Source: Naegleria gruberi
Taxonomy: Eukaryota
Reading direction: 5' to 3' (one strand)
Assembly (NCBI GenBank): GCA_000004985.1
Contig: GG738857.1
DNA: 64,000 nucleotides
Of this stretch, positions 3,001 to 55,128 are shown in pieces. The notes beneath the pieces are model-generated. The model worked only from the letters and a program-made list of their open reading frames with translations. It was not told the DNA's origin and searched no databases. The translations under genes were made by a program, and so were the position numbers. Every line of letters begins with the position of its first letter. Position 1 is the stretch's first letter.

Positions 3001-3886
3001 CTAAATTAGTAAGCCATTTCACACTCATCATGGATATGTTGCTTAGTGTAATGTGTCGTATTCCAGATGTGATTCACACTTTTGTGAGCGAATCTGAACA
3101 ACAAGAACAGTCTGCACTCTTTGGTGATACTTCACATGGTTTGAGTTTGACTGGTTCTAGTGGCGAAGATGAAATGCTTAAATCAATTAGTGCCAGATTT
3201 GGACTTGCAGAAAGTACTTCTCCTGTTTCTAACTCTGCTTCACTGGAACACAAATCTCTCAGCTCAATCCTTGCAGCTAAAAGAAAATCTGTTACTAACA
3301 GTGTTACCAATAGCACCTCCTCATCTTCACAACATCTCAGTTTTACTACTCCTAATAATCCTTCTTCTGCTACTACTCCTTCAAGTCCAGGCTCTTCTGG
3401 TGAATTGAAAAAGAGATTCTCCCTCAAGAATATTCTCAAGAGAAAATCAAAGGAAGTTGAACCAACTCCAACTGCTTTGCACACTGCACCAACAAATGCA
3501 AAGAAAATTGCTCAACCAGGTGAAGAGGGTTTCAATTTAATAGAATATCTTAAAGCTCAACAAGAACAACAAGAACAAACTCAACACACACCAGAAGTTG
3601 CAATCCCTTCAAAGGAAGACAAATCAAAGAATGAAAAAATCAAGAGAAGAATGTCTCTCACTGATAGATTATTCAATAGAAACAAATCTCTTGATCAATC
3701 CAGTGAAGAAAGTAATACATCTCCAGTTGCTGAGGCAAACAATTCATCTTCAGGTGCTGTAAGAAAGAGTATTACCTTCACTGCTTCTAATACAGACTCT
3801 CGTGGAAGTCAATCTGATTTTGGTGATTTCCTTGGTGTTACAGCAACTTTGTTCGAATTACAGAAAACCGTTTTCCAAGTTATTGT
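49..3886 (+). CDS. Large Ser/Thr/Asn-rich hypothetical protein. Three exons: 49-960, 1025-1116, and 1169 to at least 3886. The 3' end is lost in an assembly gap.
   Basis: ORF-track entries 49..981 and 1173..4001 join in frame through two introns. Intron 1 runs 961-1024 (GTAAGT to tttgtag) and intron 2 runs 1117-1168 (GTAAGT to atatag). Exon 1 ends in phase 0; exon 2 carries 2 nt, completed by t1169. The protein has low-complexity N/S/T tracts. A segment HLVISFYHLVIEKQG...FGYAVLPIKD faintly resembles a C2/DHR-1-like region, but I could not assign a domain. Confidence 0.45.
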
Positions 3887-3986
3887 NNNNNNNNNNNNNN
3901 NNNNNNNNNNNNNNNNNNNNNNNNNNNNNNNNNNNNNNNNNNNNNNNNNNNNNNNNNNNNNNNNNNNNNNNNNNNNNNNNNNNNNN
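3887..3986. other. Assembly gap (100 N)
   Basis: Run of n characters. The flanking ORF reads through it as X residues, so the continuity of the flanking genes is unknown. Confidence 0.95.
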
Positions 3987-4041
3987 TCTTTGAATCTTTA
4001 AATTCTGTTGGTTCTTCCTTGATTTAATTTTGAAATCTTAC

Positions 4042-6765
4042 ATGTTAACACAACGTGAAAAGTGCGAAAAGAGAAGTGCTATGAATGATGTGGAATTCAA
4101 CTTGCTTTCGGAAAGAGAAAGAGAGGCACTCACCACTGATCATGGGTACAAGTTCACACTTTTGTTGAAAGAATTGATTGGAGCTTTAGCAGAAAAGGCT
4201 GTTTTCTATAAGGACGATTTTGCTAACTTCTTTGTTTCATCTCAAATTAACAATCAACTTGCCTTCTTCTTTAGAGATTTACTTGGCTGTGGTGATTTAA
4301 TCAAACATGAATATGTTTTCGATTTGATGGAAAGTTACTTTAGAGAATTCACAGTCAAAAAGCCAGTCACCATTAACACTATCAAGCTTTGTATTGATTT
4401 CTTGCAAATTTTATCTGACCATCCACAATTTGCTGAATTGAACTTGTCAATCTTCCATCCAAAGGAATATATTTATCATGAATCAATTCTTTGTCCACCA
4501 GTCAAACTTTTGGTCAATCTTATTAGAGATTGTATCACCAAGTTTAAGAGTGAAATTGATGTACACAACAGTGCTATCAAAGTTCTCAGATATATTCTCA
4601 CTAAGGAGGAATATACTCATCTTTCAATTCCAAATGTAACAACAACAAGGGCTGAATTAATTGCTAGAATCTATTTCCCATATATTGTCATGTTGTTGAA
4701 GAATTTCCATGCCTTGGAATCTCTTCCTGAAATGACCACAAGACAGCACTTGAAATGCTCAGTTTGGATTTTATCTAATGTAAACTCTCAATTCTTTGAT
4801 GATTGGATCAAAACATCTGATCAAAATGTTGTTGATAACTTGGTCAAATTATTAGCTTTCTATTTGGACCATTTCGAAATCAAAGGAAGAGTTAAATACG
4901 AAACAAGTTCATTCAAAGCATTCCAACTCGTCTTTTCTAGACTTAGTAACCACCTCAAAGAAAGGGTTGTATCTATTATTGAACAGTTTAGCGATGACAT
5001 CAAGGTATTTGAACCTTCACACAGAGACTTGTCATCATTCATCAAGATGGACATTAGAGATTGTGAAGGTGCCAAATATCAAACAGATAACGGTATGAGC
5101 GAGAAAGATTTCATTGGCTACATTATGTTTACAATTGCAAAAATTATGCAAATTGTATCAATAGGAAGGCAAAAGAAAGTTAGTTTGGATATGGAAGAAA
5201 CTAGTATTGATTTAATTTCTTATTATGTCGAGCTTTTTACTCCAGTTTTCAGAGCTAATCCAAACAGTACTTACTGGAAATGGCTGTATGGAGCTCTTCT
5301 CTCTGGAAAGGAATTCTCTATGGCTACTGTAGAAGGTATCCTTGCAGGTGCAAGCGATACACTCTATGAAAAATTGATCAACATTTTGGAAAGAGTTTAC
5401 GAAAAAGATATCATCAATGTTGACAATCTATCAAAACTATTTGATGATTCAAGCGTCGCTGAAAGCGAAATTATTCTTGATGAGGAAAACAAAATCAAGG
5501 CATCCACTTTGAACAGACTTGTTGCACGTGTTTGTGATCAGAATAATAGTGGTGATTCCAAATTTACTGACACATTCTTAGTGACCTATCGTTCTTTCTG
5601 TACTCCTGAAACTCTACTCACATTAATGATGAGCTACTTTGAATATCATGTATTGCCTAAAGGTGATCAAGAAATTAATAGTAACAATAAGACTCTTGTT
5701 CTGAGAATGTTGAACACTATAAGATTATGGGTTCAAGATCACAGTTATGACTTTAATAATTGTCTCAATGCTTCAATGATGCACTTTATCTATCAACAAG
5801 TTGGTAGATTGTGTGTTATTGAAAAATCATCAAACTCTGGTTATATTAGTATTGCTAATAAGATTAAGGAAAGAATAGAAGCCAATCTTGTTTGTAATGG
5901 CGAATCTCGTGAAAAGTTGGAAAAGATGTTCAGTCGTGAAAGACCTCAACCAAAATATCCATCCAAATGGAGTGAAGCATACGAAAAGAAAGCATTCAGT
6001 ATCAAGCAATGGGATCCTCAAGAAATTGCCAAGCAAATCACTCTCTTGGACAGTGTAATTTTCACAGCCATTGAACCAAAAGAATTCTTTGGTCTTGGTT
6101 GGACAAAGAAGGACAAGATGATCAGAGCTCCAAACATTGTTCACCTCACTGATCAATTCAATAATTTATCAATGTTCGTTACCTCGGATATTGCCTGTGA
6201 GGAAAATCTTAAGAAGAGAGTAAGAAAAGTCAAACAATGGATCAATGTTGCTTGGGAATGCAAAAATCTTAATAATTTGAATGGTTGTAACTCTATTGTT
6301 TCTGCTTTCAACAATGCAGGTATTCACAGACTTAAAAAGACCTGGGATGCCATTCCAAAGAAAGACATTGAGAATGACAGATTAAGACAATTGAATGAGC
6401 TTGTCTCAATGACCAGTTCTTACAAGAATATGAGAGAACATATGTCCAGATCAGGTGAAGGTATTCCATACATTGGTATCTATTTAACTGATATGGTTTT
6501 CATTGAAGATGGTAATAAGGATTACATTACAAAGGAAAATTCCGATTTACAATTAATCAACTTTGCCAAGAGACGTAAAATTGCAGAAGTTATTCAAAGA
6601 ATCAAAACTCAACAACAAACTCTTTATGATTTCATTCCAATTCCATTTTTACAAAGAACTTTTGATTTCTCATCATTGACCGATGAAGAGAAGACTAAGA
6701 CATTATTATCCGATGACGTTATTTGGAACAAATCACTTGTAATTGAACCAAGAGAAAACAAATAA
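4042..6765 (+). CDS. Ras guanine-nucleotide exchange factor with a RasGEF N-terminal (REM) domain and a CDC25-homology domain
   Basis: Continuous ORF. The REM-like motif is FTDTFLVTYRSFCTPETLLTLMMSYF. The CDC25-domain signatures include WDPQEIAKQITLLDSVIF, RLKKTWDAIPKK and GIPYIGIYLTDMVFIEDGN, which matches the GNPD-loop region of RasGEFs. The first in-frame ATG is at 4042, with the nearest upstream in-frame stop at 3991. Confidence 0.8.
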   Translation: MLTQREKCEKRSAMNDVEFNLLSEREREALTTDHGYKFTLLLKELIGALAEKAVFYKDDFANFFVSSQINNQLAFFFRDLLGCGDLIKHEYVFDLMESYFREFTVKKPVTINTIKLCIDFLQILSDHPQFAELNLSIFHPKEYIYHESILCPPVKLLVNLIRDCITKFKSEIDVHNSAIKVLRYILTKEEYTHLSIPNVTTTRAELIARIYFPYIVMLLKNFHALESLPEMTTRQHLKCSVWILSNVNSQFFDDWIKTSDQNVVDNLVKLLAFYLDHFEIKGRVKYETSSFKAFQLVFSRLSNHLKERVVSIIEQFSDDIKVFEPSHRDLSSFIKMDIRDCEGAKYQTDNGMSEKDFIGYIMFTIAKIMQIVSIGRQKKVSLDMEETSIDLISYYVELFTPVFRANPNSTYWKWLYGALLSGKEFSMATVEGILAGASDTLYEKLINILERVYEKDIINVDNLSKLFDDSSVAESEIILDEENKIKASTLNRLVARVCDQNNSGDSKFTDTFLVTYRSFCTPETLLTLMMSYFEYHVLPKGDQEINSNNKTLVLRMLNTIRLWVQDHSYDFNNCLNASMMHFIYQQVGRLCVIEKSSNSGYISIANKIKERIEANLVCNGESREKLEKMFSRERPQPKYPSKWSEAYEKKAFSIKQWDPQEIAKQITLLDSVIFTAIEPKEFFGLGWTKKDKMIRAPNIVHLTDQFNNLSMFVTSDIACEENLKKRVRKVKQWINVAWECKNLNNLNGCNSIVSAFNNAGIHRLKKTWDAIPKKDIENDRLRQLNELVSMTSSYKNMREHMSRSGEGIPYIGIYLTDMVFIEDGNKDYITKENSDLQLINFAKRRKIAEVIQRIKTQQQTLYDFIPIPFLQRTFDFSSLTDEEKTKTLLSDDVIWNKSLVIEPRENK

Positions 6766-9207: not shown

Positions 9208-10107
9208 TATATATTGAGGTTGCAGTTTGTATTTTCTCTCTCTTAAAACTCTCAAGATGATCACAAAATCACTCGGAATTTGATGTTACACAAAAAGGGG
9301 AAGACTGTACAGTAGGGGTTGTTGGTCAGGACCTTGTCTCAAAGCCTTGTTGTTGTATTTTTTTCTTGTGTTGTTTTTAGTCTTCTTCATGCTTGAGAAA
9401 AAGCCTATGGAAGTTTTCTACTCGTTTTTGTTGGATGCACATTTTCGGTACTTGAAAAGGTTTATTGATAGACTTTTTAGAGCGATGAAAAAGTAGACTT
9501 CGCCAAAAAAGTAGGCCATCAGGATAGTTTCCAAAAAATCTTTGTAGATAGCATAGAGTTGTTGAGCCTGGAGGATGATCATGGCATGATGACAATAAAT
9601 ATCAACTTTTTAATGTTATTATTGATTGGATTTGAGTGCAGTATCTCGAAGAGTAAAAAGGCGAATAGTTAATTGAGGAAGAAACATAACTTTCATGAAA
9701 TTCCAAATGACAATTGCACTCGTTGTAATAAAGATGAAGATCTTTACAATCATGACCCAAAAAGTAGTTTAGAGAGCCAGTTTCGTCCAGTTCCATTTTT
9801 GATGAATTCCAATTTTTGTATAAAAGATAGTTTTGAGTTGCAATCTGTGTTTGTCAAGACTTTTTTCAAGTACATTTATTCAAATTAAAATCAAATAAGA
9901 ATGGATTTTTGATCTGATTATGGTGTTGATAATTTCTTAATAAATTTTAAAGGTCTTATTTAGTAGTTCGACTATTTTGCTCGATTATCTCAGATACAGA
10001 TATTGCAATACTGTAGAGCTTGTTCATTGTATAATTTTAAATTGAAGAAAAATCAGCTGTCTATTTGGTTTTTATATGGAGTGAAAACGAGTCAAATGAA
10101 AAGGTTA

Positions 10108-10984
10108 CTATTTAGAGCTGTCATGATTGTAAGGCACATCCAAACAAAAACCAGTATCAAATCCACTCGTTACCTTGTCCTTTCTGTATCCCAACTGATT
10201 ACTCACAATGAGTGTCTTCTTCTTCATAAATTTACAATTGAAATGTGTGTGACCGAATGCCCAGAGATTGATATTACGATTTCTATCAATTAAATAGAGT
10301 AAATCACTGGAAAAGGCAGTTTTTAAATTGCAATTCTTGAATCTTGGATCAGAGGTTTGTTTGGTGAGAGGAGCATGATGAGTCAAGACAATTATTGTTT
10401 CATTTCTGGATTTGGATTCAATGATTTCCTTTGTGAGCCATTCCACTTCTTCCAAATGCATTTTGGTCACGTCTGTGGTTTTCAATGGACGTTGCTGACC
10501 ATCTTCTTGGTCAATTATGGTAATATTCTTGTAGTCGTTAACATTTTGTGAAATTTCCTCAGAATGTTTCTCATCAATATTAGTCCACAATGTACATCCC
10601 AATATTCTCAATGATTGACCATTTTCTTCATCAATCAATAATGATGTTTTATCAAGAAATGTCACATTTTCATATTGAGAACAAATGGATTTAATTCTCT
10701 CCTTTGTAGACAATATTTCACTTATAATTGTTTTAAAAATTACAATTCCAATTTCATAATATTTACCTTCCATAAAATTCATGATTTCCAGCAATTACAA
10801 AAATCCTTCCAAATCCGTAAACATTCACACATTTTCCAATAAATTCTTCATATTTATCACTTGATGCCAGTGCAATATCTCCCAATAATGCCAACGTTTT
10901 ATCATGATTTCCTTCGGAGGAGAAAACAGGCTCCAAACAATTGGCCTTCTCCAAGTGAATATCTGAGGCAATGACTAATTTCAT
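10108..10984 (-). CDS. Calcineurin-like metallophosphoesterase. Two exons: 10984-10767 and 10720-10108.
   Basis: Exon 1 carries the IASDIHLE and GNHEFY motifs. A 46-nt intron (10766-10721, GTAAAT to tataag) joins two ORFs that sit in different frames. 46 mod 3 equals 1, which fits the 190-nt offset between them. The downstream exon has LWAFGHTHFN, the GHxH motif. Confidence 0.6.
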
Positions 10985-11705
10985 TTTTTTAAAGTTTGGA
11001 TTTTCAATTTTGAAATGAACATTTTACAATCAATGACGAATTTGATTTTTTTCAAATCTTTCAATTATGAAATGAATTGTTGTACTTTAATTAGAATTGG
11101 TTCTAACAAACGTATTGAATTAAAAGTGATGAAATGTGTTAAATTTTCACAAGCACTTCATGAATAATGTTAAAAATTCACTCAACCACAAAACTGTAAA
11201 TATATCATTGTTACTTATTCACAAGTCCACTAATCATATCAAATATTTTAAATATCAAAACAAGATCTTACCTGCCGATTAGAACCTTTACAATAAATTC
11301 TTCAAAAAGCTCTTCAAAATCCTTTTCAGAATGTCTTTCCCACTTTCATCCGTCTCGTCCTTTTTCTAATTTCCAATCCGGTAACTTTTACTCGTGTTGT
11401 CTCTTGTCCAACACCTTTTTGCTGTTACAATCTGTCAATTGTTATTTGATTTTATTGACAATAAACCAGTACCCACCACTTCCGATCTATCAATGTATAT
11501 TGTATTGTGTTCATTCAGTGATCCTCAACACAATCTTCATAGCAAAGCCTTTGATGAACACTTGCAAAAAACAACACAGAAAAAAAAAGGCTTGCTTGAG
11601 GTTACGCACCGATTTTTATCTTATTATTGCACCAGGGGAAGAACAGAGAGCAAGAAGTTAATAACACTTGAAAAGTATAATAACAAACATAATCGGAGAA
11701 GTAAA

Positions 11706-12931
11706 ATGGTCATTGATATTAGTCCTAGTTCATTCAAGAGAGTTGGTGTTGTTTATAATCCAATTTCAAGAGGAGGTAAGTAAAATAATTAGATGGTGAT
11801 AATTAATATATGCGATGATCAAATTATCAATTAATAATAGGTCAATCTGGAGCCTTGTTTAAGAATACAATTCATCCACTTCTTGACAAATATTTGAAGG
11901 AACGTATGGTAAAATGTAGAGCCACTGAAAGTATGGGTGATGGCAGTAGATGTGCTTTTGAATTGGTTGTTGAAGATAAATGTGATTTGATTATCACACT
12001 TGGTGGTGATGGTTCTACACAAAATACTCTCAACGGTTTAGTGAGAGGTTGTTTGTATTTGGATCCTCAAGCTTTGGCAAAGGGTGCACCACTCCCAGTT
12101 GGTTTGGCAGTTATTCCAACAGGATCTGGTAATGATTTGCAAAAGACAATCGGAGGTGAACCAGTTGACGTTTATTCAGAAGCATTCTTTGAAAGAACTG
12201 TCAAAACTATTGCAGAATCAGGCAAAGTTGTTTATGCAGATATTGGTAAAGTTGAATATACCAAAGATAATACTGGTATTATTTTGCCAGCATTGAATGA
12301 CGAACATATTCCAAAACAATATTTGAGCAATGACAGTTCTAAGAAACTTGCTTATCAATTTGATAGTGAAAATACTGGTGTTAGATTCTTTATGAATGAA
12401 AGTAGCTTTGGTATCAGTACTTCAGTTTTGAATGCTGTCAACAATAGTACCATCAGCAAGGAGATCAATTATAATGTTCAAACTTTGTGGAAACAACTTA
12501 CCTTTGTTAATCCATCGATTGACGTTGAAGTTGATGGAGAGACTGTTTATAGTGGCATTTCTCAATTGGTTTGTGTTGGTAACGGCAAGGCCTTTGGTAA
12601 TGGCATGTATCCAAATCCTAATGCAACAATTACAAGTGAAAACTTGTCCGTCTGTATTTTACATAACATTAGATTGTGGAATGTATTTTCAGTTGTCTAT
12701 TCTTTGAAGGCCGGAACAATTGGTTCATATGCATTGGCATCTCTTCTTGAAGGAAAGAAATCTTTGAAAGCAAAGAGAAGTGAATCCGAAACTCAAGATG
12801 TTTATTTGGAATGTGATGGTGAAGTTGTTGGTAAATTGCCAGCTCAATATGATGTTGTTCCAGCAATTATTAAAATGATTGTTCCAGAAAGCTCACCAGA
12901 ATATGAACTCCATAGCAAGAAGAATCTCTAA
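11706..12931 (+). CDS. Lipid kinase of the diacylglycerol-kinase catalytic-domain family (sphingosine/ceramide/acylglycerol kinase-like). Two exons: 11706-11775 and 11841-12931.
   Basis: ATG at 11706. The intron runs 11776-11840 (GTAAGT to aataatag), with a split Gly codon (g|gt). DAGK_cat signatures are LIITLGGDGSTQNTLNGL and VIPTGSGNDLQKTIG. Confidence 0.7.
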
Positions 12932-16662: not shown

Positions 16663-18011
16663 ATGTTTTATGCCGCCGGAGCTAATGAACATGGTAGGTT
16701 ATTAGTAATAATTAAATAGTAAATTGATGGAATATCAAATTAATTTATAGGTCAATTGGGGAATGGTACTTACTCGAACGTTATGGATCTCTCTCCCATC
16801 AACATATCAGCTCATCACTATAGACAAAAAACCTATCGTCAGCTAGGTCCCAAATGTCTTGCTGATTTTGCATCACTCGATGAACGTTCATTGATTGGTC
16901 TTTGTAAAATTAAACAAATTGCTTGTGGTAAACGTCATACCATGATACTAACTGGTAAGTTATTGTATCACAGCATGTTCAAGCTAATTAAACTATTTAA
17001 ATAGAGGAAAATGATTTGTATGCTTGCGGAGATAATTCCAACTCTCAACTTGGAGTCTATGAAACAATATCCAATAATACTGTTGAATGGATAGATTTTG
17101 AACCCGCTAGGACGTCAAGAATTACCTCAATTGCTTGCAGCTCTAATTCTTCCTTTATATTTTTGGAAAATGGTGAAATGTACAAAACAAGTCCTAACAA
17201 AATCTCTAATTTATCCCACAAAAATTCATTTTTCAAACTTACCATCGATAGCAAGAGCCAAGTGAAGAATTTCTTTAGCTCACCAACAACGAGTAGATTC
17301 CACATACTAACCAATGATAATTCTGTATTTGTAGGAGGGGAAGATGAGCAAGGTTTTTGGTTGTCAAGACAAGACCAAGCTCTGAAACCGACATCATTCC
17401 CTATCATCACCAACCCAATTAAAATAATTTCAAGTGGAGGTTTCCATACAGTCATTATTACCGAGAAGAATGAATATTTCAGTTTGGGAGGAAATTATTT
17501 CTATCAACGAGGTGACACAGATGATAGAGCTGCCATTAGAGAAGGTACTAATTTACCATTCTCTGGAAAGGCTATTAGTCAAGTTTGTTGTGGACATTTC
17601 CACACACTAGTGTTGTGTGCAGATGGAAGCTTGTATGCTTGTGGTAAAAACAGTCATGGACAACTTGGAAGCCCAACCCTCAATGAAAAGAATCTCTACA
17701 TGAAAGTACCAATTAATGCCTATATACACTCAATGCTTTGTGGAACAGACCATACCGTATTATTATCAACTGATAAGAGAGTTATGAGATGTGGAAAAAA
17801 TGACAGAGGGCAAATCTTTATAGATTTCAAAAAGCAAAACTCATCATTTGAAATGCTGAAAGTCAAGGAGTTTGCCCATTTGGCTTGTGGTGCTCATTTT
17901 ACAATATGTTATGGAGACATGACCTATGTTATTAATCGTTTCCCAAAGATTGCTTCATTTCTGAAGAGAACAGAACTATCTGATGTGAGGATTAAGTGTT
18001 ATGACGATTAA
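16663..18011 (+). CDS. RCC1-repeat (regulator of chromosome condensation-like) protein. Three exons: 16663-16693, 16751-16954 and 17005-18011.
   Basis: Exon 1 is MFYAAGANEH plus g. Intron 16694-16750 (GTAGGT to tttatag) gives ...HGQLGNGTYS. Intron 16955-17004 (GTAAGT to aaatag) gives ...ILTG-E-NDLYACGDNSNSQLG. The GxNxxGQLG and CGxxHT motifs recur at least six times. Confidence 0.7.
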
Positions 18012-18216: not shown

Positions 18217-20256
18217 TTATTGTTGGTTGGTATTGAGAATATACGATAGTTTGTGTTTAGGTTGATCTGGTAAACTATCTGAAGATTTGGAAAATGTTGA
18301 GTGTTTTTGTTTTTCGGTAGTCCATCTCTTAAATGAATCGAAAATGATATTATTCACGACAATATCCTCCAAACCACTAAAAAGTTCCTGCTGTCCAATA
18401 CCACTATTAATTTTGTATCTATATGAATCCAATTCTGTGCTTGAAATATTCAGCAATTTTGGAGCGTTTGGAGCCAAATACTTTTGATACATTTCCTTCT
18501 GCAGTTCACTTCTTTGCTGTAAATTGTTCAGCATCTTGTAGAATTGAACATCTTCCAAGAAGAGTATGGATTCTTCATTGTGCTCCTTAATACAGAACTC
18601 TTTAAATTCATTTCTCTTGGTGTGGTTGTCGAACATTTCCTTAAATTCAATTTTTTCTACGAGTTTGTTGTATTGGGTTTCCTTTTCCTTCAAGTGCTTC
18701 AAGAGGGATGTTTTATCTGTATGGTTGTGGATGAGAAGGACGCAAACCAAAATATAATCAGAGATTTCTTCTGTTGACTTATCCTCTGATTGATGCTTGT
18801 TTGCCTCAGTTTTGAGCATTTTACAAAAGTTGATAGAAACTCTCACATTGAACTCAATGCCCACCTTACTAGAGGCAACAGTTTCAAGATCGTGGAATGA
18901 TGCTTCATCTCCTTCAGTGAGGGCTTTTTCAAACATTTCTTTCAAATTGAGTTTTGGTAGAATTGAATTAATGATAGTTGACCTATCCTTTTCACCTCTT
19001 CTCAAATCAATTTCTGTCAGTGAAAACATGTTGTAGAATGCATTATTACAGTGAATAATGGATCCATCAGTTAGAATTGTAATGACAGCATCATCGATGG
19101 TGTTCAAAATTCTTCTTGTTCTCTGCTCCTCGAGAGAAATCTTATCCAATAGCACAGATAATTGTTGATGACTCTGAGCTAGATCTTTCGTCCTCTCTGC
19201 CACCTTAATTTCTAATTTGTTTTGAATGATGAGGTATTCCTTCTTTCTAAAATAGTCCTGAACCAATTGGAAGACTGCCAGAATGACTAGAACTGCCAAA
19301 ATAAAATTCAAAACAATACCAAAAGCAATTTCCACATAGTAGGTATCTTCGTGGGTCCATCCTTGTAAAGGTTTTAACAAGAGTTTGTATTCGCTATTGA
19401 GAATGGTCATATTTACAGAGATTGCATCATCAATGCTAGTCAAGTTGGTAGTGATACCATTTGTTGTCATGTTGGTACCATTTCTGGCCTCTAAGAAAAT
19501 TCTATTTTGTTCATATTCATATAATTGATATTCATAACCTTTGAGAGTATCATGGAGGTTGATTCTGTTGAATAATGTTGTAAAATAGATGATTGAACTC
19601 GATAATCCCCAAAATGTTTGATTAGGATAAAACAATGGGTACTGTGTAATGAGAGCAGCTGTTGCTAATCTCTTAATATAGATTGGTCCAAAGATTGTAG
19701 TTTCCTTCAGTTCAATTGCTCTGTTGATGGCTCTCAAGTGAGCTGCTTCACTACCAACAACCTTTCCATAAACAAACGAAAGAACAAGTCCCTTGTCAAT
19801 TTCGAATTGTGCTAATTCCGGATAAATTACATTTAACCTCGAACCAAGGTCTGCAAATGAAGAATCCGTTATTGTATAATTTGATGAATAAATTACTTGA
19901 GCAATTGAAACTAAACTACTCATTGACAATTCTATTTGTCTTTTCATGGCCAAGTAGGCTGTTAATCCCACCTGTGTAACTTGTGCCTTCTTTGTTTCCA
20001 TTCTATTATCATCAACAGTTTTTAAAACGACAGACGTCACCGGCACAGTCACACACAAGGCAACCAATGCCAGAACTAAACCCAATATTATACTCAATAT
20101 ATAGACTCCTCGTTGTCTTTTCGATAATTCTTGTTTCAAATTTCCTACAACATTTTCACTTGTTGAAAGAGCTTGTTTAGATTGTTTTAATGTTGGAGTT
20201 GAATCTCCAGCCACAGTTGGCCCAATTTCTTCGTCTATTAGCGAATCCAGCACCAT
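18217..20256 (-). CDS. Two-TM sensor receptor. An extracellular CHASE/Cache-like domain sits between the TM helices, followed by a coiled coil, a PAS domain and a C-terminal RGS domain.
   Basis: Continuous 679-aa ORF with ATG at 20256. The TM helices are VYILSIILGLVLALVALCVTVPV and VEIAFGIVLNFILAVLVILAVFQLV, with about 250 aa between them. The PAS-like block is RILNTIDDAVITILTDGSIIHCNNAFYNMF. The C-terminal RGS box runs EFCIKEHNEESILFLEDVQFYK...YQKYLAPNAPKLLNISS...FDSFKRW. Confidence 0.6.
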   Translation of the reverse strand: MVLDSLIDEEIGPTVAGDSTPTLKQSKQALSTSENVVGNLKQELSKRQRGVYILSIILGLVLALVALCVTVPVTSVVLKTVDDNRMETKKAQVTQVGLTAYLAMKRQIELSMSSLVSIAQVIYSSNYTITDSSFADLGSRLNVIYPELAQFEIDKGLVLSFVYGKVVGSEAAHLRAINRAIELKETTIFGPIYIKRLATAALITQYPLFYPNQTFWGLSSSIIYFTTLFNRINLHDTLKGYEYQLYEYEQNRIFLEARNGTNMTTNGITTNLTSIDDAISVNMTILNSEYKLLLKPLQGWTHEDTYYVEIAFGIVLNFILAVLVILAVFQLVQDYFRKKEYLIIQNKLEIKVAERTKDLAQSHQQLSVLLDKISLEEQRTRRILNTIDDAVITILTDGSIIHCNNAFYNMFSLTEIDLRRGEKDRSTIINSILPKLNLKEMFEKALTEGDEASFHDLETVASSKVGIEFNVRVSINFCKMLKTEANKHQSEDKSTEEISDYILVCVLLIHNHTDKTSLLKHLKEKETQYNKLVEKIEFKEMFDNHTKRNEFKEFCIKEHNEESILFLEDVQFYKMLNNLQQRSELQKEMYQKYLAPNAPKLLNISSTELDSYRYKINSGIGQQELFSGLEDIVVNNIIFDSFKRWTTEKQKHSTFSKSSDSLPDQPKHKLSYILNTNQQ

Positions 20257-23360: not shown

Positions 23361-24884
23361 ATGAGTGAGAATAATACACCAAACTTTGACGCATTCTCTC
23401 CAATTGTATTTCCAATGGATCTGCCAACGGCAGGTGGTAGTAATCAAACATCATCATCAGCAGTCGGTGGTGGATCATCATCATTGGGTTTGAATACATC
23501 GAGCAATTTTCTAACACCTTCAGTCTTTGAAACGAATGTAAGAGTTGGCGTTAATCAAACTTCAAGTATTAAACCGATTAGAGCTGTGGGTCTTGATGCT
23601 TTTAATAATGATACTTCATCGGTGCCAATTTCTAATGAAGAATCACCACAAATATTTACACCAGGCATCACAGCTGAACTTTTAAATACACAAACACCAA
23701 GGATTCAACTTTTACCTCCAACTCCAACACCAAACGAAACTCCATTCGCAACCAAGATTGACAATCTTTATCCACAGCAGGTTGATCCATTGAGCAACTT
23801 TGATTTTGGACAAAAGAATCATAGACCTGTAGGTGCTGCAAATATTGTGACACAATATCCTGCCAATACTTTTAATATGCATGTCATGAAGGGTTTCTTT
23901 ATTGATCCAAGTCAAGTTGCCGCAGTTCCACAAGGTATGCCACAAATTCCAGGTCCCAGTAGTGATTCGCCATCGTCACCAACTGGTGAATGTCTTCCAA
24001 CTGGTACTTTACTTTCTGTTATTAGAGGATTTAGTATTGATGATGGAGTTCCAGAAGAACCTGGTGGCAGAGACAATAAGAAACCACTCACTTCACACAC
24101 TGTTCAAGTTAGAATTGCTGACCTAGTTGCCGAACATCCATTAGGTCCAAATCAAACCTACGTAATCAAATGTGTATTATTAGGTTATAAACGATATGAA
24201 AAGGAAGAATTATCAACATTAGAATCAATACCAATTGAAAATATTGATAACCCTGCAGAGTATGAAGAATTTGTCTTTAACAATCTGATTGTTAAACAAA
24301 CAAGTCACAGCAATGGTCAAAAGTTATTCTTGAGATTTAAACTTGAAATTAATTCTGATAGTGGAGAACAAGTATTGGAAGCTTTAGATACTACACACTT
24401 TAAAACAGTCACAAAGAGAGCTGTCATTAAAAGAGGTGTAACTAGGAAATTGAGCGAGCAAAAGAAGACAGCAACTGTATTGACAGGAGCAGAACCAAAA
24501 TACAGTGTCACTTCTGGTGGTCAATTGATAAAACTGGTAACAAATAACATGCCAGAAAAGGTCAGAGTTCAAACAATTGTAGTTAAATTTGGAGAAAAGA
24601 AAGCCAGAAGAGTTCACTCAGCTAGGGATAATGTAATTATTTGTGAAACACCTGAATATCCAAAATCTGACAATGTACCAATTTCTGTTTCATTAGATAG
24701 TGGAGCAACATTTTTCCATTCGTCTGGTGTTAAAATGTCGTTTATTGACCCAACTGATGGATTACCAGATATCACTCCTCACAGTCAAACATTTGTTGTG
24801 AACTTTGCTCAGGCTGCCAGTGACCTTAAACATGACAGAGATGAAGATACCGAACCAAATAATAAGAAAAAGTCTAAGAAATAA
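23361..24884 (+). CDS. Putative DNA-binding transcription factor with an IPT/TIG domain, resembling the Rel/NDT80/CSL family, plus a long low-complexity N-terminus
   Basis: ATG at 23361, continuous 507 aa. The C-terminal block EPKYSVTSGGQLIKLVTNNMPEKVRVQTIVVKFGEKKARRVHSARDNVIICETPEYPKSDNVPISVSLDSGATFF has IPT/TIG character. The upstream beta-rich segment (VQVRIADLV...YVIKCVLLGYKRYEKEEL...LFLRFKLEINSD) is compatible with a p53-like DNA-binding fold, but the family is uncertain. Confidence 0.45.
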   Translation: MSENNTPNFDAFSPIVFPMDLPTAGGSNQTSSSAVGGGSSSLGLNTSSNFLTPSVFETNVRVGVNQTSSIKPIRAVGLDAFNNDTSSVPISNEESPQIFTPGITAELLNTQTPRIQLLPPTPTPNETPFATKIDNLYPQQVDPLSNFDFGQKNHRPVGAANIVTQYPANTFNMHVMKGFFIDPSQVAAVPQGMPQIPGPSSDSPSSPTGECLPTGTLLSVIRGFSIDDGVPEEPGGRDNKKPLTSHTVQVRIADLVAEHPLGPNQTYVIKCVLLGYKRYEKEELSTLESIPIENIDNPAEYEEFVFNNLIVKQTSHSNGQKLFLRFKLEINSDSGEQVLEALDTTHFKTVTKRAVIKRGVTRKLSEQKKTATVLTGAEPKYSVTSGGQLIKLVTNNMPEKVRVQTIVVKFGEKKARRVHSARDNVIICETPEYPKSDNVPISVSLDSGATFFHSSGVKMSFIDPTDGLPDITPHSQTFVVNFAQAASDLKHDRDEDTEPNNKKKSKK

Positions 24885-24892
24885 ATGTAAAT

Positions 24893-26899
24893 TTAAACAA
24901 GATTTAAATTCTTCATATCATCGTCATATTTCTTCAATTCTCTAACCATGTCAATAAAGTTAGAGCTCAGAATAAATCTTGACCATGTATCTTGAACACA
25001 ATTTAAACAGGTTATTTCTACATTATCAAGGATGGTATTTAAAAGGTCAGTGTTGCTGGATTGCCATGATGAATCCCCTTTCTCTGTCATTTCTTGATCT
25101 CCACTTTTGTTGAGATGGGTTTCCACGAGTTGATTGAGTTGCTTAAGAGATCTATCAAACTCCTTCTTTACATTGGATGAAAGATTGAGCTCGAATGGTG
25201 CACCATTGACAATAAAGCTCTCGTTGAGTTTGTGTAATATTTGTGTTTTCTTTCTGATATCCTCAAAGGTATGAGTTGGAAGATTGTTGAAAACCTTATT
25301 GGAAAAGTACAAGAATAAAAAGTTCTCTGCTGAAAACTCCAATTCGCACCATTCTTTGAAATATTTCTGACAAACCTCCTCATTAAACATGACAAAGAGA
25401 ATGACACGAGTATCAACAATTCTTTCATCTTGCTCTTCTGCATTTTCCTTTGTAAGAAATCCAGCTTCAGTGTAGAGAATCTTTCTAATTCTATCATTTT
25501 CCATATCGGAGGATAAATCTCTGAACAAGTTGCTACTACCACTTCTATCAGCAGAATTATTCTTATTCTTGATTCCAATTTTCTTGCCGTCAGAGTTTTG
25601 CCATAAGAAACTTCTAATCAAAGGTATCCATACACTGATGATACTTGTAATGAAGAGAGGAATATTAACCATCCATGCAGCTGCAAAGTAATATTCAGGT
25701 TCTGCTTGGTATTGTGGAATGACACTCATTAAAATAAAGCCAATTAAGAAAATGGCCCAAATTACCACAACAGATACCAACTCTGCCTTGATGCCAAAGG
25801 ATTCCTTGGCATATCTCATTACCTTGTAGAAGAAGAATAGAATGAAAATACCATAGAATAGAATGAGAGAAATTGAACCTGCATATACAGGAATAGTAGC
25901 AGCACAACCCACATTCCAAGTTTCTTGACCTGTCAATCTATTCAAAAACACTCCACAATAAGCCAAAAAGATAATACTGTTCAAGAGGAAAGTGAATAAG
26001 AAAATTTTAGCAGTAAAGTCCTCTCTAGCCAATTTTCTCAATTGCTTCAATCTCTTTTGTCTCTTTTCTGACCATTTCTTACTCTTGGCTGTATTGTCAA
26101 CATTTCCACCTAAATGCAAAGCACTTTTCACTCTCTCCTTAAAACTCTTCGATGTAGAACTATCTCTTTTAAGGTGTGGAATGTTTTGTGAATTTTTTCT
26201 ATCCAGGGCAAGGTCGAATGAACCTGTTGTGGAGACAGTTGCTGGTGAAGCATCTGTTGTTATCTGTGAAAGTGAAGAATTTGCAGTCAACAAATGTATT
26301 TGAGAAGATGATTTGTCAAGCTTCTTTTCCGTTGTTGATGATGTTTCCAAAAGATCAACGCCCATGGAAACTAAATGACTCTTAAAACTATCACCCTGTA
26401 ATCTGTTCATTTCAGAAATATAGTACAATCTGATGCACAAGACAAGGTATGGAATGGCTATCAGTGGAAAGCCATAAAATTGAAAACTCAAATAGAATAT
26501 ACAAGGGAAGGCCTCTCTTTTCACAGCCAACCTCAGAGAAAGTATCGTAAAGGAAAAATAATGTGCAATAATTAATATAAATACAAATAGTGAGGATCTC
26601 GCCTTGACAGGTTGTTTGTTTCTTCTAAAGAAGAATGTTATGAGTGTTACGATTGTATATATTGTGAATGCTCCCCAAATTGCATATGATGTGTACCAAA
26701 CGTATGGTGGATCATCTCGTGTAATCTGTTGATTAAATTGGTCCTGTTGAATATCATAGATTTTTCCAATTTCTTCCAAATTATTCGAAAGTTGAAAATG
26801 ACTCGCCGATGCTGATGATGATGTACACGTGAACATATTCATTATCCTATTCACTATCGATTGTGAAAGGAAATCCATCGTGGTTAATAAATATCTCAT
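24893..26899 (-). CDS. Seven-transmembrane protein with a C-terminal RGS domain (7TM-RGS, AtRGS1-like topology)
   Basis: Continuous 668-aa ORF with ATG at 26899. It has seven hydrophobic helices; three come before and four after a roughly 150-aa Ser-rich loop. The C-terminal RGS box reads CQKYFKEWCELEFSAENFLFLYFSNKVF...ILHKLNESFIVNGAPFELNLSSNVKKEF...TWSRFILSSNFIDMV. Confidence 0.65.
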   Translation of the reverse strand: MRYLLTTMDFLSQSIVNRIMNMFTCTSSSASASHFQLSNNLEEIGKIYDIQQDQFNQQITRDDPPYVWYTSYAIWGAFTIYTIVTLITFFFRRNKQPVKARSSLFVFILIIAHYFSFTILSLRLAVKREAFPCIFYLSFQFYGFPLIAIPYLVLCIRLYYISEMNRLQGDSFKSHLVSMGVDLLETSSTTEKKLDKSSSQIHLLTANSSLSQITTDASPATVSTTGSFDLALDRKNSQNIPHLKRDSSTSKSFKERVKSALHLGGNVDNTAKSKKWSEKRQKRLKQLRKLAREDFTAKIFLFTFLLNSIIFLAYCGVFLNRLTGQETWNVGCAATIPVYAGSISLILFYGIFILFFFYKVMRYAKESFGIKAELVSVVVIWAIFLIGFILMSVIPQYQAEPEYYFAAAWMVNIPLFITSIISVWIPLIRSFLWQNSDGKKIGIKNKNNSADRSGSSNLFRDLSSDMENDRIRKILYTEAGFLTKENAEEQDERIVDTRVILFVMFNEEVCQKYFKEWCELEFSAENFLFLYFSNKVFNNLPTHTFEDIRKKTQILHKLNESFIVNGAPFELNLSSNVKKEFDRSLKQLNQLVETHLNKSGDQEMTEKGDSSWQSSNTDLLNTILDNVEITCLNCVQDTWSRFILSSNFIDMVRELKKYDDDMKNLNLV

Positions 26900-27640: not shown

Positions 27641-29146
27641 ATGATGGGAAATGTGATTTTGGAGTTGGATAGAAATATTTCATCGGAATTTCTAAAGGAT
27701 CAATTTTCAAGGACTTGCAAATTGAATTATTTAAAAACTATAATATTTCAACTTGTTGTGATTAGAGATAAGAAGTGCCTCCCTCTTGTTCAATTATTTA
27801 GTCATGATCGAGGATTTATTGAAAAGATGGTCGAATATCAGGCATTTGCTCTTGGCTATGCTTCAAAAGAAATTAAAAAAGACAAATCGATAGCAGTTAA
27901 GGCATTGAAAACAAGTGGACACTCAATATCTTGTGTCGATGAGTCGTTATATTCCGATCGAGAAATAGCTCTTATTGCACTATCAAGTCATTCCTATGCC
28001 ATTCGTTTCTTTATGGAACACTTTTCTAATGATAAGGAGATAATCATGAATGCAGTTTCGAAATGTGGTAACTTAATTCATTATGCTACATATTGTGATT
28101 TGGATATTATATTGGCTGCTGTGACAACGTACGAGCTTGCATTTGAGCTTGCCGACCCAAAATATTATTTTGATAGAGAAATAATGATGGTAGCGGTTAC
28201 AAGGAATGGAATAACTCTTAGATATGCAAGTGAAACATTACGAGAGGATAGAGAAATAGTTCTGAAAGCTGTGAAAAATGCTGGAGATGCTTTGAGATAT
28301 GCCTTAGTACAAGATAGAGAAATTGCCTTAGAGGCAGTAAAATCTTCTGGTACAGCGCTTCAGTTTGTTGACAAGAATTTCCTTAGCGACTCAGAAATAG
28401 TCATGATAGCTCTTCATTCAAATGGTTCTTCTTTACAGTATCTACCTAAAGAAATGAGAGAAATAAGGGAATATGTTGAAGCTGCAATTTCTGAAAATCC
28501 TCTGTCAATTCAATATGCTAGTGAGGTGTATAAATCAGATAGAGAGCTAGTTAAAAAGGCTATATCCGAAAAGGGAAATATTTTAGGATATGTTGACAAG
28601 AAATTTCTGAAAGATGAGCAAATTGTTTTTTTGGCTGCTTTAAACAATCCTATAACCTTCAAATACGCAGATGAAAGTTTACGGTCTAATCTGAATTTCA
28701 TATTGGACATTATAAGGACTTCAAAGAAAACAAATGTATTAATGAGCTATTTGCCGGCCCCTGGTAGCATTAACATTTATAATGATAGAGAGTTCTATTC
28801 AAAGATTCCTATCGATACACATTTTATTAAGGAGAAAATTAGACTTTGTGGATTCAAGGCTACATTTGAAGAGTTTAGTTACAGTAAGGAAATAATTACA
28901 GAGATGGTCAAAGATTACATGACACTTGCTTTTATTAATGAAGGACTTCAACAAGATAGAGAAATGCTTCGAACTGCTCTTAATCTTAATGGTGAGCTGA
29001 TTAGTGAAATGCCTTTCATTATTGACAACTTGGATATTGAACTGATTCAAGTATCATTAATTTCCCTTCTTTCTGGCAGCGATGATAAAGAAAAGGAAAT
29101 TATCCATCAAACTCTACAATTAATCCAACATTCACAACAACTTTAA
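27641..29146 (+). CDS. DUF4116-type repeat protein
   Basis: ATG at 27641. At least eight copies of an approximately 37-aa repeat occur, for example DREIVLKAVKNAGDALRYALVQDREIALEAVKSSGTALQFV. These match the DUF4116 repeat pattern (REIxLxAVxxNGxALxYA). Confidence 0.6.
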   Translation: MMGNVILELDRNISSEFLKDQFSRTCKLNYLKTIIFQLVVIRDKKCLPLVQLFSHDRGFIEKMVEYQAFALGYASKEIKKDKSIAVKALKTSGHSISCVDESLYSDREIALIALSSHSYAIRFFMEHFSNDKEIIMNAVSKCGNLIHYATYCDLDIILAAVTTYELAFELADPKYYFDREIMMVAVTRNGITLRYASETLREDREIVLKAVKNAGDALRYALVQDREIALEAVKSSGTALQFVDKNFLSDSEIVMIALHSNGSSLQYLPKEMREIREYVEAAISENPLSIQYASEVYKSDRELVKKAISEKGNILGYVDKKFLKDEQIVFLAALNNPITFKYADESLRSNLNFILDIIRTSKKTNVLMSYLPAPGSINIYNDREFYSKIPIDTHFIKEKIRLCGFKATFEEFSYSKEIITEMVKDYMTLAFINEGLQQDREMLRTALNLNGELISEMPFIIDNLDIELIQVSLISLLSGSDDKEKEIIHQTLQLIQHSQQL

Positions 29147-29202: not shown

Positions 29203-30006
29203 ATGAGCGCACAACCTTCACAAATTCTCTACAAGGATCTTTTATCAGGAGATGTGCTCGTTACCAATTATTATAAAATTGAAAAGGTATATCATGGATG
29301 TATCTATCAAGTAAAATCACATTTCATGATCCGAGAACCATCAGCCTTTGATGTATCATCACATTCCGAAGCATTAAAATCATCAGGATCATCAACTCCT
29401 TCATCTCCTTCACCTTCTTCCACCTTCTCTGATATTAAAAAATCTATTCGTTATTCTATTGTGGAAAAATTTGGATATCATGAATGCGCATTGAAAAAGA
29501 AGGAATTTCTCATGATTATGAATACCTACACAAGTACACTCAAATCAATTATTGAAGATACAGGAGATGAGGAGAAACAAAAAGCATTTCTAATGGGAAC
29601 AACACTTTTTATTCAAAGTGTACTGTCAAATTTCAATAATTATAGATTCTTTATTGGACCATCCAATCAAATGAATAAGGGAATGGTCATTGTACAAAAT
29701 TGTGCCAATGATTTACTGACACCAGAATTCTACTACTTTGTTGATGGCTTGAAAGAAGAAGTGTTCCACACCAAACCACATCAAACAAACACCACAACAA
29801 CCAACACAATTAGCCATAGTACTGTATCCTCTCAGAATCCAAACAATCCTCATCCCTATGCAACTCCATCCCCAACAGATTCCATTGACATTACTGGTTT
29901 AAAATCGCCCAATTTTGATGAACTCACCAATACAAGCGATAGCTTTGTTGGAAGTGCATCTAGTACTGGATCCATTCCAATCATTGATCACCATGAGAAT
30001 ATGTAA
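29203..30006 (+). CDS. Translationally controlled tumour protein (TCTP/Mss4-like fold) homologue with an internal Ser-rich insertion and a C-terminal extension
   Basis: The N-terminus ILYKDLLSGDVLVTNYYKIEKV parallels the TCTP start (MIIYKDIISGDEM...). The C-terminal core IGPSNQMNKGMVIVQNCANDLLTPEFYYFVDGLKEE parallels the TCTP GESMDPD...FV.WKHGL block. The match is moderate. Confidence 0.5.
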   Translation: MSAQPSQILYKDLLSGDVLVTNYYKIEKVYHGCIYQVKSHFMIREPSAFDVSSHSEALKSSGSSTPSSPSPSSTFSDIKKSIRYSIVEKFGYHECALKKKEFLMIMNTYTSTLKSIIEDTGDEEKQKAFLMGTTLFIQSVLSNFNNYRFFIGPSNQMNKGMVIVQNCANDLLTPEFYYFVDGLKEEVFHTKPHQTNTTTTNTISHSTVSSQNPNNPHPYATPSPTDSIDITGLKSPNFDELTNTSDSFVGSASSTGSIPIIDHHENM

Positions 30007-54840: not shown

Positions 54841-54841
54841 A

Positions 54842-55128
54842 NNNNNNNNNNNNNNNNNNNNNNNNNNNNNNNNNNNNNNNNNNNNNNNNNNNNNNNNNNN
54901 NNNNNNNNNNNNNNNNNNNNNNNNNNNNNNNNNNNNNNNNNNNNNNNNNNNNNNNNNNNNNNNNNNNNNNNNNNNNNNNNNNNNNNNNNNNNNNNNNNNN
55001 NNNNNNNNNNNNNNNNNNNNNNNNNNNNNNNNNNNNNNNNNNNNNNNNNNNNNNNNNNNNNNNNNNNNNNNNNNNNNNNNNNNNNNNNNNNNNNNNNNNN
55101 NNNNNNNNNNNNNNNNNNNNNNNNNNNN
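54842..55128. other. Assembly gap (287 N)
   Basis: Run of n characters. It separates the membrane-protein gene from the PPR gene. The ORF-track entry 54409..58980 (1523 aa with X residues) is an artefact of reading through this gap. Confidence 0.95.

What the first reader, a model, noticed from the sequence alone, without database searches (positions are those of the whole stretch)
24893..26899. A seven-TM receptor fused to an RGS domain
Seven predicted helices are followed by a canonical RGS box. This is the same topology as the plant AtRGS1-type receptor-GAP, which self-activates G-alpha regulation without a classical GPCR-GEF. An unusual feature is a roughly 150-aa Ser-rich cytoplasmic loop between helices 3 and 4. 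A second membrane RGS protein lies only 4.6 kb away at 18217-20256. Together they suggest a local concentration of G-protein regulatory genes.
Basis: partly seen in the sequence, partly recalled or inferred. Interest (0 to 1): 0.6.

Follow-up and report, generated by a model that had tools for sequence, protein, structure and literature searches.

The report
Naegleria seven-helix receptor fused to RGS
This Naegleria gruberi gene encodes a GPCR-like seven-helix membrane protein fused to a divergent RGS domain, the module that switches G proteins off; it is a real but unsurprising member of the already described "7TM-RGS" receptor class known from plants and many protists.

Summary
ORF 24893-26899 (-) is an intronless 668-aa Naegleria gruberi gene, conserved in N. 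fowleri, N. lovaniensis and Willaertia. It has seven membrane helices (N-out, C-in), a 135-aa intracellular TM3-TM4 loop and a C-terminal RGS domain.

"Canonical RGS box" is overstated. Pfam RGS scores 17.6 bits, below the 23.9 cut-off, because a variable insertion of about 27 aa splits the domain between helices 6 and 7. With the insertion removed, all 27 PDB hits are RGS domains. The G-alpha contact motifs (EFSAEN, ELNL, DTWSRF) are invariant in the orthologues.

The long loop is typical of the family (median 75 aa, maximum 330). The "RGS cluster" is weak: N. gruberi has 229 RGS genes, the neighbour is only 28% identical in the RGS box, and it is absent from the N. fowleri locus. GAP activity and self-activating G-alpha were not tested.

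Verdict: a new member of a known kind, of modest interest.

The parts
24893..26899 (-). Complete intronless gene for the 7TM-RGS protein. The ORF is 668 aa; the annotated N. gruberi model starts at M8 (26876-26878) and is 661 aa.
   Evidence: ORF listing. 100% identity to the N. gruberi predicted protein P0001, and orthologues in N. lovaniensis, N. fowleri (57 and 59% identity) and Willaertia magna (two copies, 46 and 40%).
25604..26707 (-). Seven-helix GPCR-fold domain (residues 65-432), closest to class C GPCRs. It includes the conserved Cys pair: C133 at the top of TM3 (26501-26503) and C332 in extracellular loop 2 (25904-25906).
26015..26419 (-). Expanded intracellular loop 2 (residues 161-295). 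Conserved helical extensions of TM3 and TM4 flank a disordered Ser/Thr/Lys-rich core (residues 185-251; 26147-26347).
   Evidence: AlphaFold pLDDT below 50 for 185-251, with helices 133-178 and 269-328. Composition. The membrane-proximal parts are invariant in five orthologues. Loop length distribution in the family.
25412..25603 (-). Cytoplasmic linker between TM7 and the RGS domain (residues 433-496), partly disordered.
   Evidence: AlphaFold pLDDT below 50 for 439-445 and 452-463. Poorly conserved in the orthologue alignment.
24899..25411 (-). Divergent RGS domain (residues 497-667). G-alpha contact motifs are EFSAEN 521-526 (25322-25339), N572 (25184-25186) and DTWSR 637-641 (24977-24991). 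The protein ends directly after the last helix, with no C-terminal tail.
   Evidence: Pfam RGS 17.6 bits, below the cut-off. 4 of 5 orthologues hit RGS, best 4.8e-7. 25 of 26 PDB profile hits are RGS, and 27 of 27, spanning the whole box, after the insertion is removed. Foldseek TM-score 0.62-0.83 (normalised to the target) for the single RGS-domain chains.
25055..25135 (-). Lineage-variable insertion inside the RGS domain (residues 589-615), between helices 6 and 7. It is longer in N. lovaniensis, N. fowleri and Willaertia.
   Evidence: Orthologue alignments. Low pLDDT around residues 600-610. Removing it restores alignments over the whole RGS box.
18217..20256 (-). Neighbouring, unrelated membrane RGS protein: TM, an ectodomain of about 235 aa, TM, PAS, RGS. 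It is not part of a functional unit with the target as far as the evidence shows.
   Evidence: Pfam RGS 1.4e-12 and PAS_8 2.1e-6. Two hydrophobic helices at 53-71 and 310-328. Only 28% identity over 74 aa to the target RGS. No match in the N. fowleri locus.

Best explanation
The gene encodes a plasma-membrane 7TM-RGS protein, a 'receptor-GAP'. An N-out, C-in GPCR-fold domain of the class C type, without a large ectodomain, holds a cytoplasmic RGS domain next to membrane-bound G-alpha subunits. The RGS domain binds the switch regions of G-alpha-GTP through its conserved EFSAEN, ELNL and DTWSRF surfaces and accelerates GTP hydrolysis, which turns signalling off.

The 7TM domain and its large intracellular loop 2 most likely control when and where this GAP acts. 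Control could come from a conformational change, or from phosphorylation-dependent removal from the membrane. The Ser/Thr-rich loop would then play the role that the phosphorylated C-terminal tail plays in AtRGS1, because this protein has no tail.

Shown here: the gene, the topology, the GPCR fold, the RGS fold, the conserved contact residues, and co-inheritance of the two domains. Inferred: GAP activity, the partner G-alpha, ligand or phosphorylation control, and plasma-membrane location.
For: Gene and organism: (100% identity to the N. gruberi protein; orthologues in 3 other heteroloboseans).

Seven TM helices and topology.

RGS domain. The contact motifs are invariant in the orthologues and align to the EFSEEN, EVN and DSYPRF motifs of RGS8 and of the RGS-domain chain 4igu_A (CG5036).

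Family: a profile made from the 7TM region alone found 139 relatives in 1.84 billion representatives. 73 of the 94 long relatives carry Pfam RGS. They include other heteroloboseans (Acrasis, Pharyngomonas, and Naegleria and Willaertia paralogues), an amoebozoan (Clastostelium) and Anaeramoeba.

Precedent for mechanism: AtRGS1 and Trichomonas TvRGS2 accelerate the GTPase of their G-alpha (PMC3718340, PMC3865004). 7TM-RGS proteins are reported in many bikonts (PMC3971589).
Against: No biochemical data exist for this protein or for any heterolobosean 7TM-RGS.

The RGS domain is divergent (below the Pfam cut-off) and carries an insertion. Some RGS-homology domains bind G-alpha without GAP activity.

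The link to the plant RGS1 7TM domain is weak at sequence level: hhalign E=0.073, and an HMM score of 18 bits against at most 6.3 for reversed controls.

Naegleria has many conventional GPCR-pathway parts, so the plant-style 'GAP-only' logic need not apply. The role proposed for loop 2 is pure inference.
Confidence: 0.75

Rival explanations
1. Bifunctional receptor. The class C-like 7TM domain is a true GPCR that activates G-alpha as a GEF when it binds ligand. The tethered RGS domain sharpens the kinetics or confers selectivity on the same G protein, acting as a built-in 'kinetic scaffold'.
For: The 7TM domain has a full GPCR fold, nearest to G-protein-coupling class C receptors, with the conserved TM3-ECL2 cysteines. 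Heteroloboseans possess most components of the GPCR signalling system, so GEF-type signalling exists there (PMC3971589). 7TM-RGS and canonical GPCRs coexist in several lineages (PMC3971589).
Against: No GEF activity has been shown for any 7TM-RGS protein. In class C receptors, loop 2 is a main G-protein contact (my own knowledge). Here it is interrupted by an insert of about 100 aa that varies greatly in length across the family.
Confidence: 0.12
2. The 7TM domain is only a membrane anchor or trafficking module, and the RGS domain is a constitutive, unregulated GAP.
For: There is no recognisable ligand-binding ectodomain: the N-terminus is about 64 aa and low confidence. Many RGS proteins across eukaryotes carry one or more TM helices simply for membrane placement (PMC3971589).
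Against: Conservation inside the bundle and in the loops is strong: invariant residues across TM2-TM7 in five orthologues, and family-wide R101, C133, C332, E373 and P426. This exceeds what a passive anchor needs.
Confidence: 0.08
3. The C-terminal domain is an RGS-homology domain that has lost GAP function. It would serve as a G-alpha effector or adaptor module, as in GRK, axin or RhoGEF-type RH domains.
For: The Pfam RGS score is below the cut-off. The insertion lies within the domain. Three relatives also touch the Pfam RGS-like (PF09128) model.
Against: All residues equivalent to RGS4 E83, S85, E87, N88, N128, D163, S164 and R167 are present and invariant (the residue mapping rests on my knowledge of RGS4). 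The insertion lies between helices 6 and 7, at the end of the bundle opposite the G-alpha face (structural knowledge of RGS4; inference). The best structural matches are GAP-active R4, RZ and R7 RGS domains.
Confidence: 0.05

Closest known systems
AtRGS1-type plant 7TM-RGS proteins (Arabidopsis RGS1 and its orthologues)
   Same: Both have an N-terminal 7TM domain without a large ectodomain, followed by a linker and a cytoplasmic RGS box. Both 7TM domains are structurally closest to class C GPCRs (this protein; AtRGS1: PMC11580166). Many plant RGS1 proteins carry precomputed Pfam 7tm_3 hits, as do relatives of this protein. The family 7TM HMM aligns to plant RGS1 from TM3 to TM7 in register, including the ECL2 Cys and the TM7 Pro.
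   Different: Sequence similarity of the 7TM domains is marginal. This protein has a 135-aa loop 2 and a split RGS domain. It lacks the phosphorylated C-terminal tail that drives AtRGS1 endocytosis. It belongs to a multi-paralogue family in an organism with 44 G-alpha subunits (PMC8584482) and 229 RGS genes (PMC3971589), whereas plants have one RGS and a self-activating G-alpha.
Trichomonas vaginalis TvRGS (7TM- and 5TM-RGS) proteins
   Same: Both are TM-RGS fusions from protists classed as excavates in the cited papers, and TvRGS2 has demonstrated GAP activity on TvG-alpha5 (PMC3865004).
   Different: Trichomonas lacks G-beta/gamma and GPCRs, whereas Naegleria has both (PMC3971589). Direct homology to the TvRGS 7TM domain was not tested here.
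Class C GPCRs lacking a Venus-flytrap domain (GPR158, GPR156, GPRC5D)
   Different: There is no significant sequence similarity. Pfam 7tm_3 is not matched by this protein. The only PDB sequence hits of the family profile are GABA-B2 at E of about 1.2. Here the RGS is covalently fused.
Fungal 7TM RGS-domain proteins (e.g. Magnaporthe MoRgs7)
   Same: These are membrane-embedded proteins with an RGS or RGS-like domain that are internalised on stimulation (PMC10184898, abstract).
   Different: Not compared here. The domain order and the origin of the 7TM domain may differ.

Membership tests
7TM-RGS receptor-GAP family (AtRGS1 type) | Seven transmembrane helices N-terminal to the RGS domain, with an N-out, C-in topology | tested here: met
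   Seven hydropathy peaks. Seven high-confidence helices. 230-283 residues superpose on class C GPCR bundles. Positive-inside counts.
7TM-RGS receptor-GAP family (AtRGS1 type) | Cytoplasmic C-terminal RGS box | tested here: met
   Profile hits are RGS only, apart from one weak non-RGS hit. Foldseek TM-score 0.62-0.83, normalised to the target, for the single RGS-domain chains. 4 of 5 orthologues match Pfam RGS at E up to 1. The window protein alone is below the Pfam cut-off.
7TM-RGS receptor-GAP family (AtRGS1 type) | Conserved G-alpha contact residues (RGS4 E83, S85, E87, N88, N128, D163, S164, R167 equivalents) | tested here: met
   E521, S523, E525, N526, N572, D637, T638 and R641 are invariant in the orthologues. 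The motifs align with those of RGS8 and of the RGS-domain chain 4igu_A (CG5036). The RGS4 numbering comes from my own knowledge.
7TM-RGS receptor-GAP family (AtRGS1 type) | 7TM domain homologous to that of plant RGS1 (common origin rather than convergent fusion) | tested here: inconclusive
   hhalign E=0.073 over ECL2-TM5 only. The family HMM scores up to 18.2 bits on plant 7TM regions against at most 6.3 on reversed controls, aligned in register from TM3 to TM7. Both are class C-like (PMC11580166). No plant sequence was among the 139 hits of the orthologue profile.
7TM-RGS receptor-GAP family (AtRGS1 type) | Ser-cluster C-terminal tail whose phosphorylation triggers endocytosis | tested here: not met
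   The protein ends at the last RGS helix (H646-667 of 668) with a conserved ...MKNLNLV end. Ser/Thr-rich disorder lies in loop 2 instead.
7TM-RGS receptor-GAP family (AtRGS1 type) | GAP activity on a cognate, self-activating G-alpha | not testable with these tools
   Needs biochemistry. No G-alpha gene was found among the window ORFs scanned against Pfam.
Pfam RGS (PF00615) | Score at or above the gathering threshold (23.9 bits) | tested here: not met
   17.6 bits, E=0.005, covering profile positions 6-83 of 117 only. The cause is the insertion at residues 589-615.
Class C GPCR (Pfam 7tm_3, PF00003) | 7TM bundle structurally nearest to class C receptors | tested here: met
Class C GPCR (Pfam 7tm_3, PF00003) | Sequence match to 7tm_3 above the gathering threshold (33.5 bits) | tested here: not met
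   The window protein has no hit, even with loop 2 deleted. 15 of 94 relatives hit at E below 1e-3; the four relatives inspected individually score 18-29 bits, below the cut-off.
Class C GPCR (Pfam 7tm_3, PF00003) | Large extracellular ligand-binding domain (Venus flytrap, with or without a Cys-rich domain) | tested here: not met
   Only about 64 residues precede TM1. They have no Pfam match and low pLDDT.

The most novel reading that the evidence does not exclude
Heterolobosean, amoebozoan, Anaeramoeba and plant 7TM-RGS proteins would all descend from one ancient fusion of a class C-type GPCR bundle with an RGS domain. Within that family, this Naegleria/Willaertia orthogroup would have moved the phospho-regulatory 'tail' function into a greatly expanded intracellular loop 2 with conserved helical stalks. 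That would make it a distinct regulatory variant of the receptor-GAP.
Probability: 0.3. Interest if true: 0.5.

Novelty: new member of a known kind. Interest (0 to 1): 0.3.

Why it matters
7TM-RGS proteins are central to the debate on whether ancestral eukaryotic G-protein signalling was controlled by receptor-GAPs rather than by receptor-GEFs.

This gene shows that such proteins can escape domain-based censuses. Its RGS domain falls below the Pfam threshold, and the N. gruberi entry is still an unnamed 'predicted protein'.

The result also adds a heterolobosean example in which the 7TM part is clearly class C-like, as reported for AtRGS1. That gives modest support to a single ancient origin of the fusion. 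It offers a free-living, culturable protist in which receptor-GAP and receptor-GEF signalling coexist and could be compared.

It does not change current understanding.

Tried and rejected
1. AlphaFold with only the five orthologues gave an unusable model (pLDDT 42). It was replaced by a 109-sequence alignment.

2. Fold search against afdb50, which would have allowed direct comparison with the AtRGS1 model, was unavailable.

3. A single-sequence search of the PDB found nothing. The 5-orthologue 7TM profile against the PDB gave only spurious ribosomal and Sm hits through the Lys-rich loop.

4. The search for homologous proteins with the 109-sequence alignment returned only the known orthologues. 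Taxonomy of the wider family therefore rests on 20 cluster look-ups.

5. Tandem duplication of the two RGS genes is rejected: 28% identity over 74 aa, different architectures.

6. A conserved RGS gene cluster is rejected. The N. fowleri locus keeps the convergent 507-aa neighbour but not the PAS-RGS gene.

7. The idea that TM3 R157 and TM6 E373 form a class C-type ionic lock was considered and dropped. The alignment to GABA-B2 puts the K3.50 equivalent at L154 in this orthogroup, and model coordinates could not be inspected.

8. The ectodomain of the neighbouring PAS-RGS protein has no Pfam match.

9. No phylogeny was built.

Full report
WHAT IS THERE

The window is Naegleria gruberi DNA. The ORF at 24893-26899 on the minus strand (668 aa) is 100% identical to an annotated 661-aa 'predicted protein' of N. 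gruberi, which starts at M8 of the ORF. It has full-length orthologues in N. lovaniensis (57% identity), N. fowleri (59%) and Willaertia magna (two copies, 46% and 40%). The gene is intronless and uninterrupted. G+C content is uniform at about 34% across the window.

TOPOLOGY

Kyte-Doolittle analysis gives seven hydrophobic segments at 72-92, 101-126, 131-164, 294-322, 330-364, 366-399 and 403-433.

An AlphaFold model from the five orthologues alone was useless (pLDDT 42). With a 109-sequence family alignment, the model reached pLDDT 79 and pTM 0.77. It has seven long helices above pLDDT 90 and disordered stretches at 1-37, 185-251 and 439-463.

Lys+Arg counts are 4, 24, 3 and 5 on the predicted inside loops and tail, against 2, 1 and 0 on the outside loops. 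This fits an N-out, C-in topology, so the TM3-TM4 loop is intracellular loop 2 and the RGS domain is cytoplasmic.

THE RGS DOMAIN

'Canonical' is too strong. Pfam RGS scores 17.6 bits (E=0.005), below the gathering score of 23.9, and covers only model positions 6-83.

Other evidence shows it is nevertheless an RGS domain:
- Four of the five orthologues match Pfam RGS at E up to 1, the best at 4.8e-7.
- A profile of the C-terminal region hits 26 PDB sequences, of which 25 are RGS domains.
- The orthologue alignment shows a lineage-variable insertion between two conserved blocks, at residues 589-615 here and much longer in the other species.
- With the insertion deleted, all 27 PDB hits at E of 0.1 or below are RGS domains. 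Most of these alignments span essentially the whole box, for example RGS4 residues 67-177 in 1agr_E.
- Foldseek places the modelled domain on RGS16, RGS8, RGS1, RGS4 and RGS9 with target-normalised TM-scores of 0.62-0.83.

The motifs EFSAEN (521-526), ELNL (570-573) and QDTWSRF (636-642) align with EFSEEN, EVN and KDSYPRF of RGS8 and of the RGS-domain chain 4igu_A, CG5036. By my knowledge of the RGS4-Gi-alpha1 complex, these motifs contain the G-alpha contacts E83, S85, E87, N88, N128, D163, S164 and R167. All equivalents are invariant in the orthologues. The second refutation criterion is therefore not met either.

The insertion lies between helices 6 and 7. In RGS4 that is the end of the four-helix bundle opposite the G-alpha face (established structure; inference for this protein).

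THE 7TM DOMAIN AND THE FAMILY

A profile built only from residues 55-440, with no RGS sequence, was scored against 1.84 billion representative proteins. It found 139 relatives at E of 1e-3 or below.
- Of the 94 relatives of at least 300 aa that were scanned, 73 carry a Pfam RGS domain and 15 give hits to 7tm_3, the class C GPCR transmembrane family. The four 7tm_3 hits inspected individually are below the gathering score.
- Named members include further Naegleria and Willaertia paralogues, Acrasis kona and Pharyngomonas kirbyi (Heterolobosea), Clastostelium recurvatum (Amoebozoa) and Anaeramoeba flamelloides.

The two domains are therefore inherited together in a widespread protist family. This agrees with published surveys that find 7TM-RGS architectures in many bikonts and in some early-branching opisthokonts (PMC3971589).

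Family-wide conserved positions:
- C133, at the extracellular end of TM3, in 103 of 109 sequences.
- C332, in extracellular loop 2, in 108 of 109. Together these make the classical GPCR disulfide pair.
- R101, E373 and P426.

At sequence level the class C affinity is only hinted at. The relatives inspected score 18-29 bits on 7tm_3, below the 33.5 cut-off, and one covers positions 12-241 of 251. The only PDB sequence hits of a 21-member 7TM profile are GABA-B2 at E of about 1.2, with matching loop 1 and TM3 motifs. The window protein itself does not hit 7tm_3, even with loop 2 deleted.

RELATION TO AtRGS1

Plant RGS1 orthologues were retrieved with the 7TM part of an AtRGS1 sequence recalled from memory. 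It was 93% identical to the Camelina cluster representative. Many of them carry precomputed 7tm_3 plus RGS annotations.

The comparisons gave the following:
- Profile-profile comparison of the protist and plant 7TM domains is weak: hhalign E=0.073, covering ECL2 and TM5.
- The protist family HMM scores plant 7TM regions up to 18.2 bits, against at most 6.3 bits for the same sequences reversed. The alignment runs in register from the end of TM3 to TM7 and matches the ECL2 Cys and the TM7 Pro.

Common ancestry is therefore plausible but not proven.

There are clear differences from AtRGS1. This protein has no C-terminal tail, since the chain ends at the last RGS helix with a conserved MKNLNLV. 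The tail is the site of the phosphorylation that triggers AtRGS1 endocytosis (PMC3718340). This protein also has a split RGS domain and a 135-aa loop 2.

THE LOOP

Loop 2 is 135 aa (residues 161-295). It is 17% Ser and 12.5% Lys. Its disordered core (185-251) is 37% Ser+Thr.

The membrane-proximal parts are helical extensions of TM3 and TM4 and are almost invariant among the orthologues.

Across 100 full-length relatives, this loop has a median of 75 aa, an interquartile range of 38-130 and a maximum of 330. Its expansion is a family trait, not a peculiarity of this gene. A phospho-regulatory role replacing the missing tail is my inference.

THE 'CLUSTER'

The protein at 18217-20256 (-) is a genuine membrane RGS protein: two TM helices, an ectodomain of about 235 aa with no Pfam match, PAS_8, and RGS at 1.4e-12.

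Its RGS box is only 28% identical over 74 aa to the target. No other RGS-like ORF is in the window.

N. gruberi has 229 RGS genes (PMC3971589, PMC5784254). For a genome of about 41 Mb (size from my own knowledge), about 7% of RGS genes would have another within 6.6 kb by chance, and 30% would have one within 64 kb.

In N. fowleri the orthologous locus retains the convergent downstream neighbour, the orthologue of the 507-aa ORF at 23361-24884. It has no match to the PAS-RGS gene within 10 kb.

None of the other window ORFs scanned is a G-protein subunit. They include DOCK-C2, RasGEF, QPRTase, RCC1-like, DUF4116 (two genes), TCTP and a PPR-DYW protein.

MECHANISM AND VERDICT

The best reading is a membrane receptor-GAP. 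A class C-like heptahelical domain positions, and probably gates, a GAP-competent RGS domain acting on some of the many Naegleria G-alpha subunits.

GAP activity, the ligand, the regulation and the localisation are all inferred.

The plant-style claim of G-protein control 'without a GPCR-GEF' cannot be transferred. Heteroloboseans have most GPCR-pathway components (PMC3971589), and no G-alpha kinetics could be tested.

The architecture is already known, and GAP activity of this kind has been demonstrated biochemically for AtRGS1 and for Trichomonas TvRGS2 (PMC3718340, PMC3865004). This is a new, previously unlabelled member of a known kind, and interest is modest.

Noticed in passing
window 18217-20256 (-): A 679-aa protein built like a bacterial sensor but with an RGS output: TM helix (53-71), an ectodomain of about 235 aa with no Pfam match, TM helix (310-328), PAS_8, then a clear RGS domain (1.4e-12). 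The ectodomain was not identified.
   Followed up: partly
window 54409-58980 (+): A 1523-aa ORF with many PPR repeats, an E motif and a C-terminal DYW deaminase domain (3.4e-36). This is a plant-type organellar RNA-editing factor architecture in a heterolobosean. From my own knowledge it has been reported for Naegleria before; I did not check.
   Followed up: no
window 27641-29146 (+) and 59930-61474 (+): Two proteins made largely of DUF4116 repeats (E=8.8e-89 and 2e-68). The first is transcribed divergently from the 7TM-RGS gene.
   Followed up: no
window 23361-24884 (+): A 507-aa ORF with no Pfam match, convergent with the 7TM-RGS gene. Only 8 bp separate the two stop codons. This neighbour pairing is conserved in N. 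fowleri (49% identity, L001 12687-14081).
   Followed up: partly
window 1173-6765 (+) and 17016-18011 (+): Several small-GTPase regulators lie in the same window: DOCK-C2 (1.5e-27), RasGEF with RasGEF_N (4.5e-56), and an RCC1-like repeat protein. This probably reflects the signalling-rich Naegleria genome rather than a functional cluster.
   Followed up: no
window 24893-24916 (-), residues 662-668: The extreme C-terminus, M-K-N/K-L/I-N-L-V/R, is conserved in all five orthologues, directly after the last RGS helix. It could be a short docking or sorting motif. No function was assigned.
   Followed up: no
L001 (N. fowleri VFQX01000022.1) 10001-12525: The N. fowleri gene model P0003 lacks about 27 residues of RGS helix 6 that are present in N. 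lovaniensis and N. gruberi. It also has an N-terminal extension of about 70 aa. These are probably gene-model errors, such as a wrongly called intron or start.
   Followed up: partly
window 29203-30006 (+): A TCTP (translationally controlled tumour protein) homologue (1.2e-25) with a C-terminal extension of about 80 aa.
   Followed up: no
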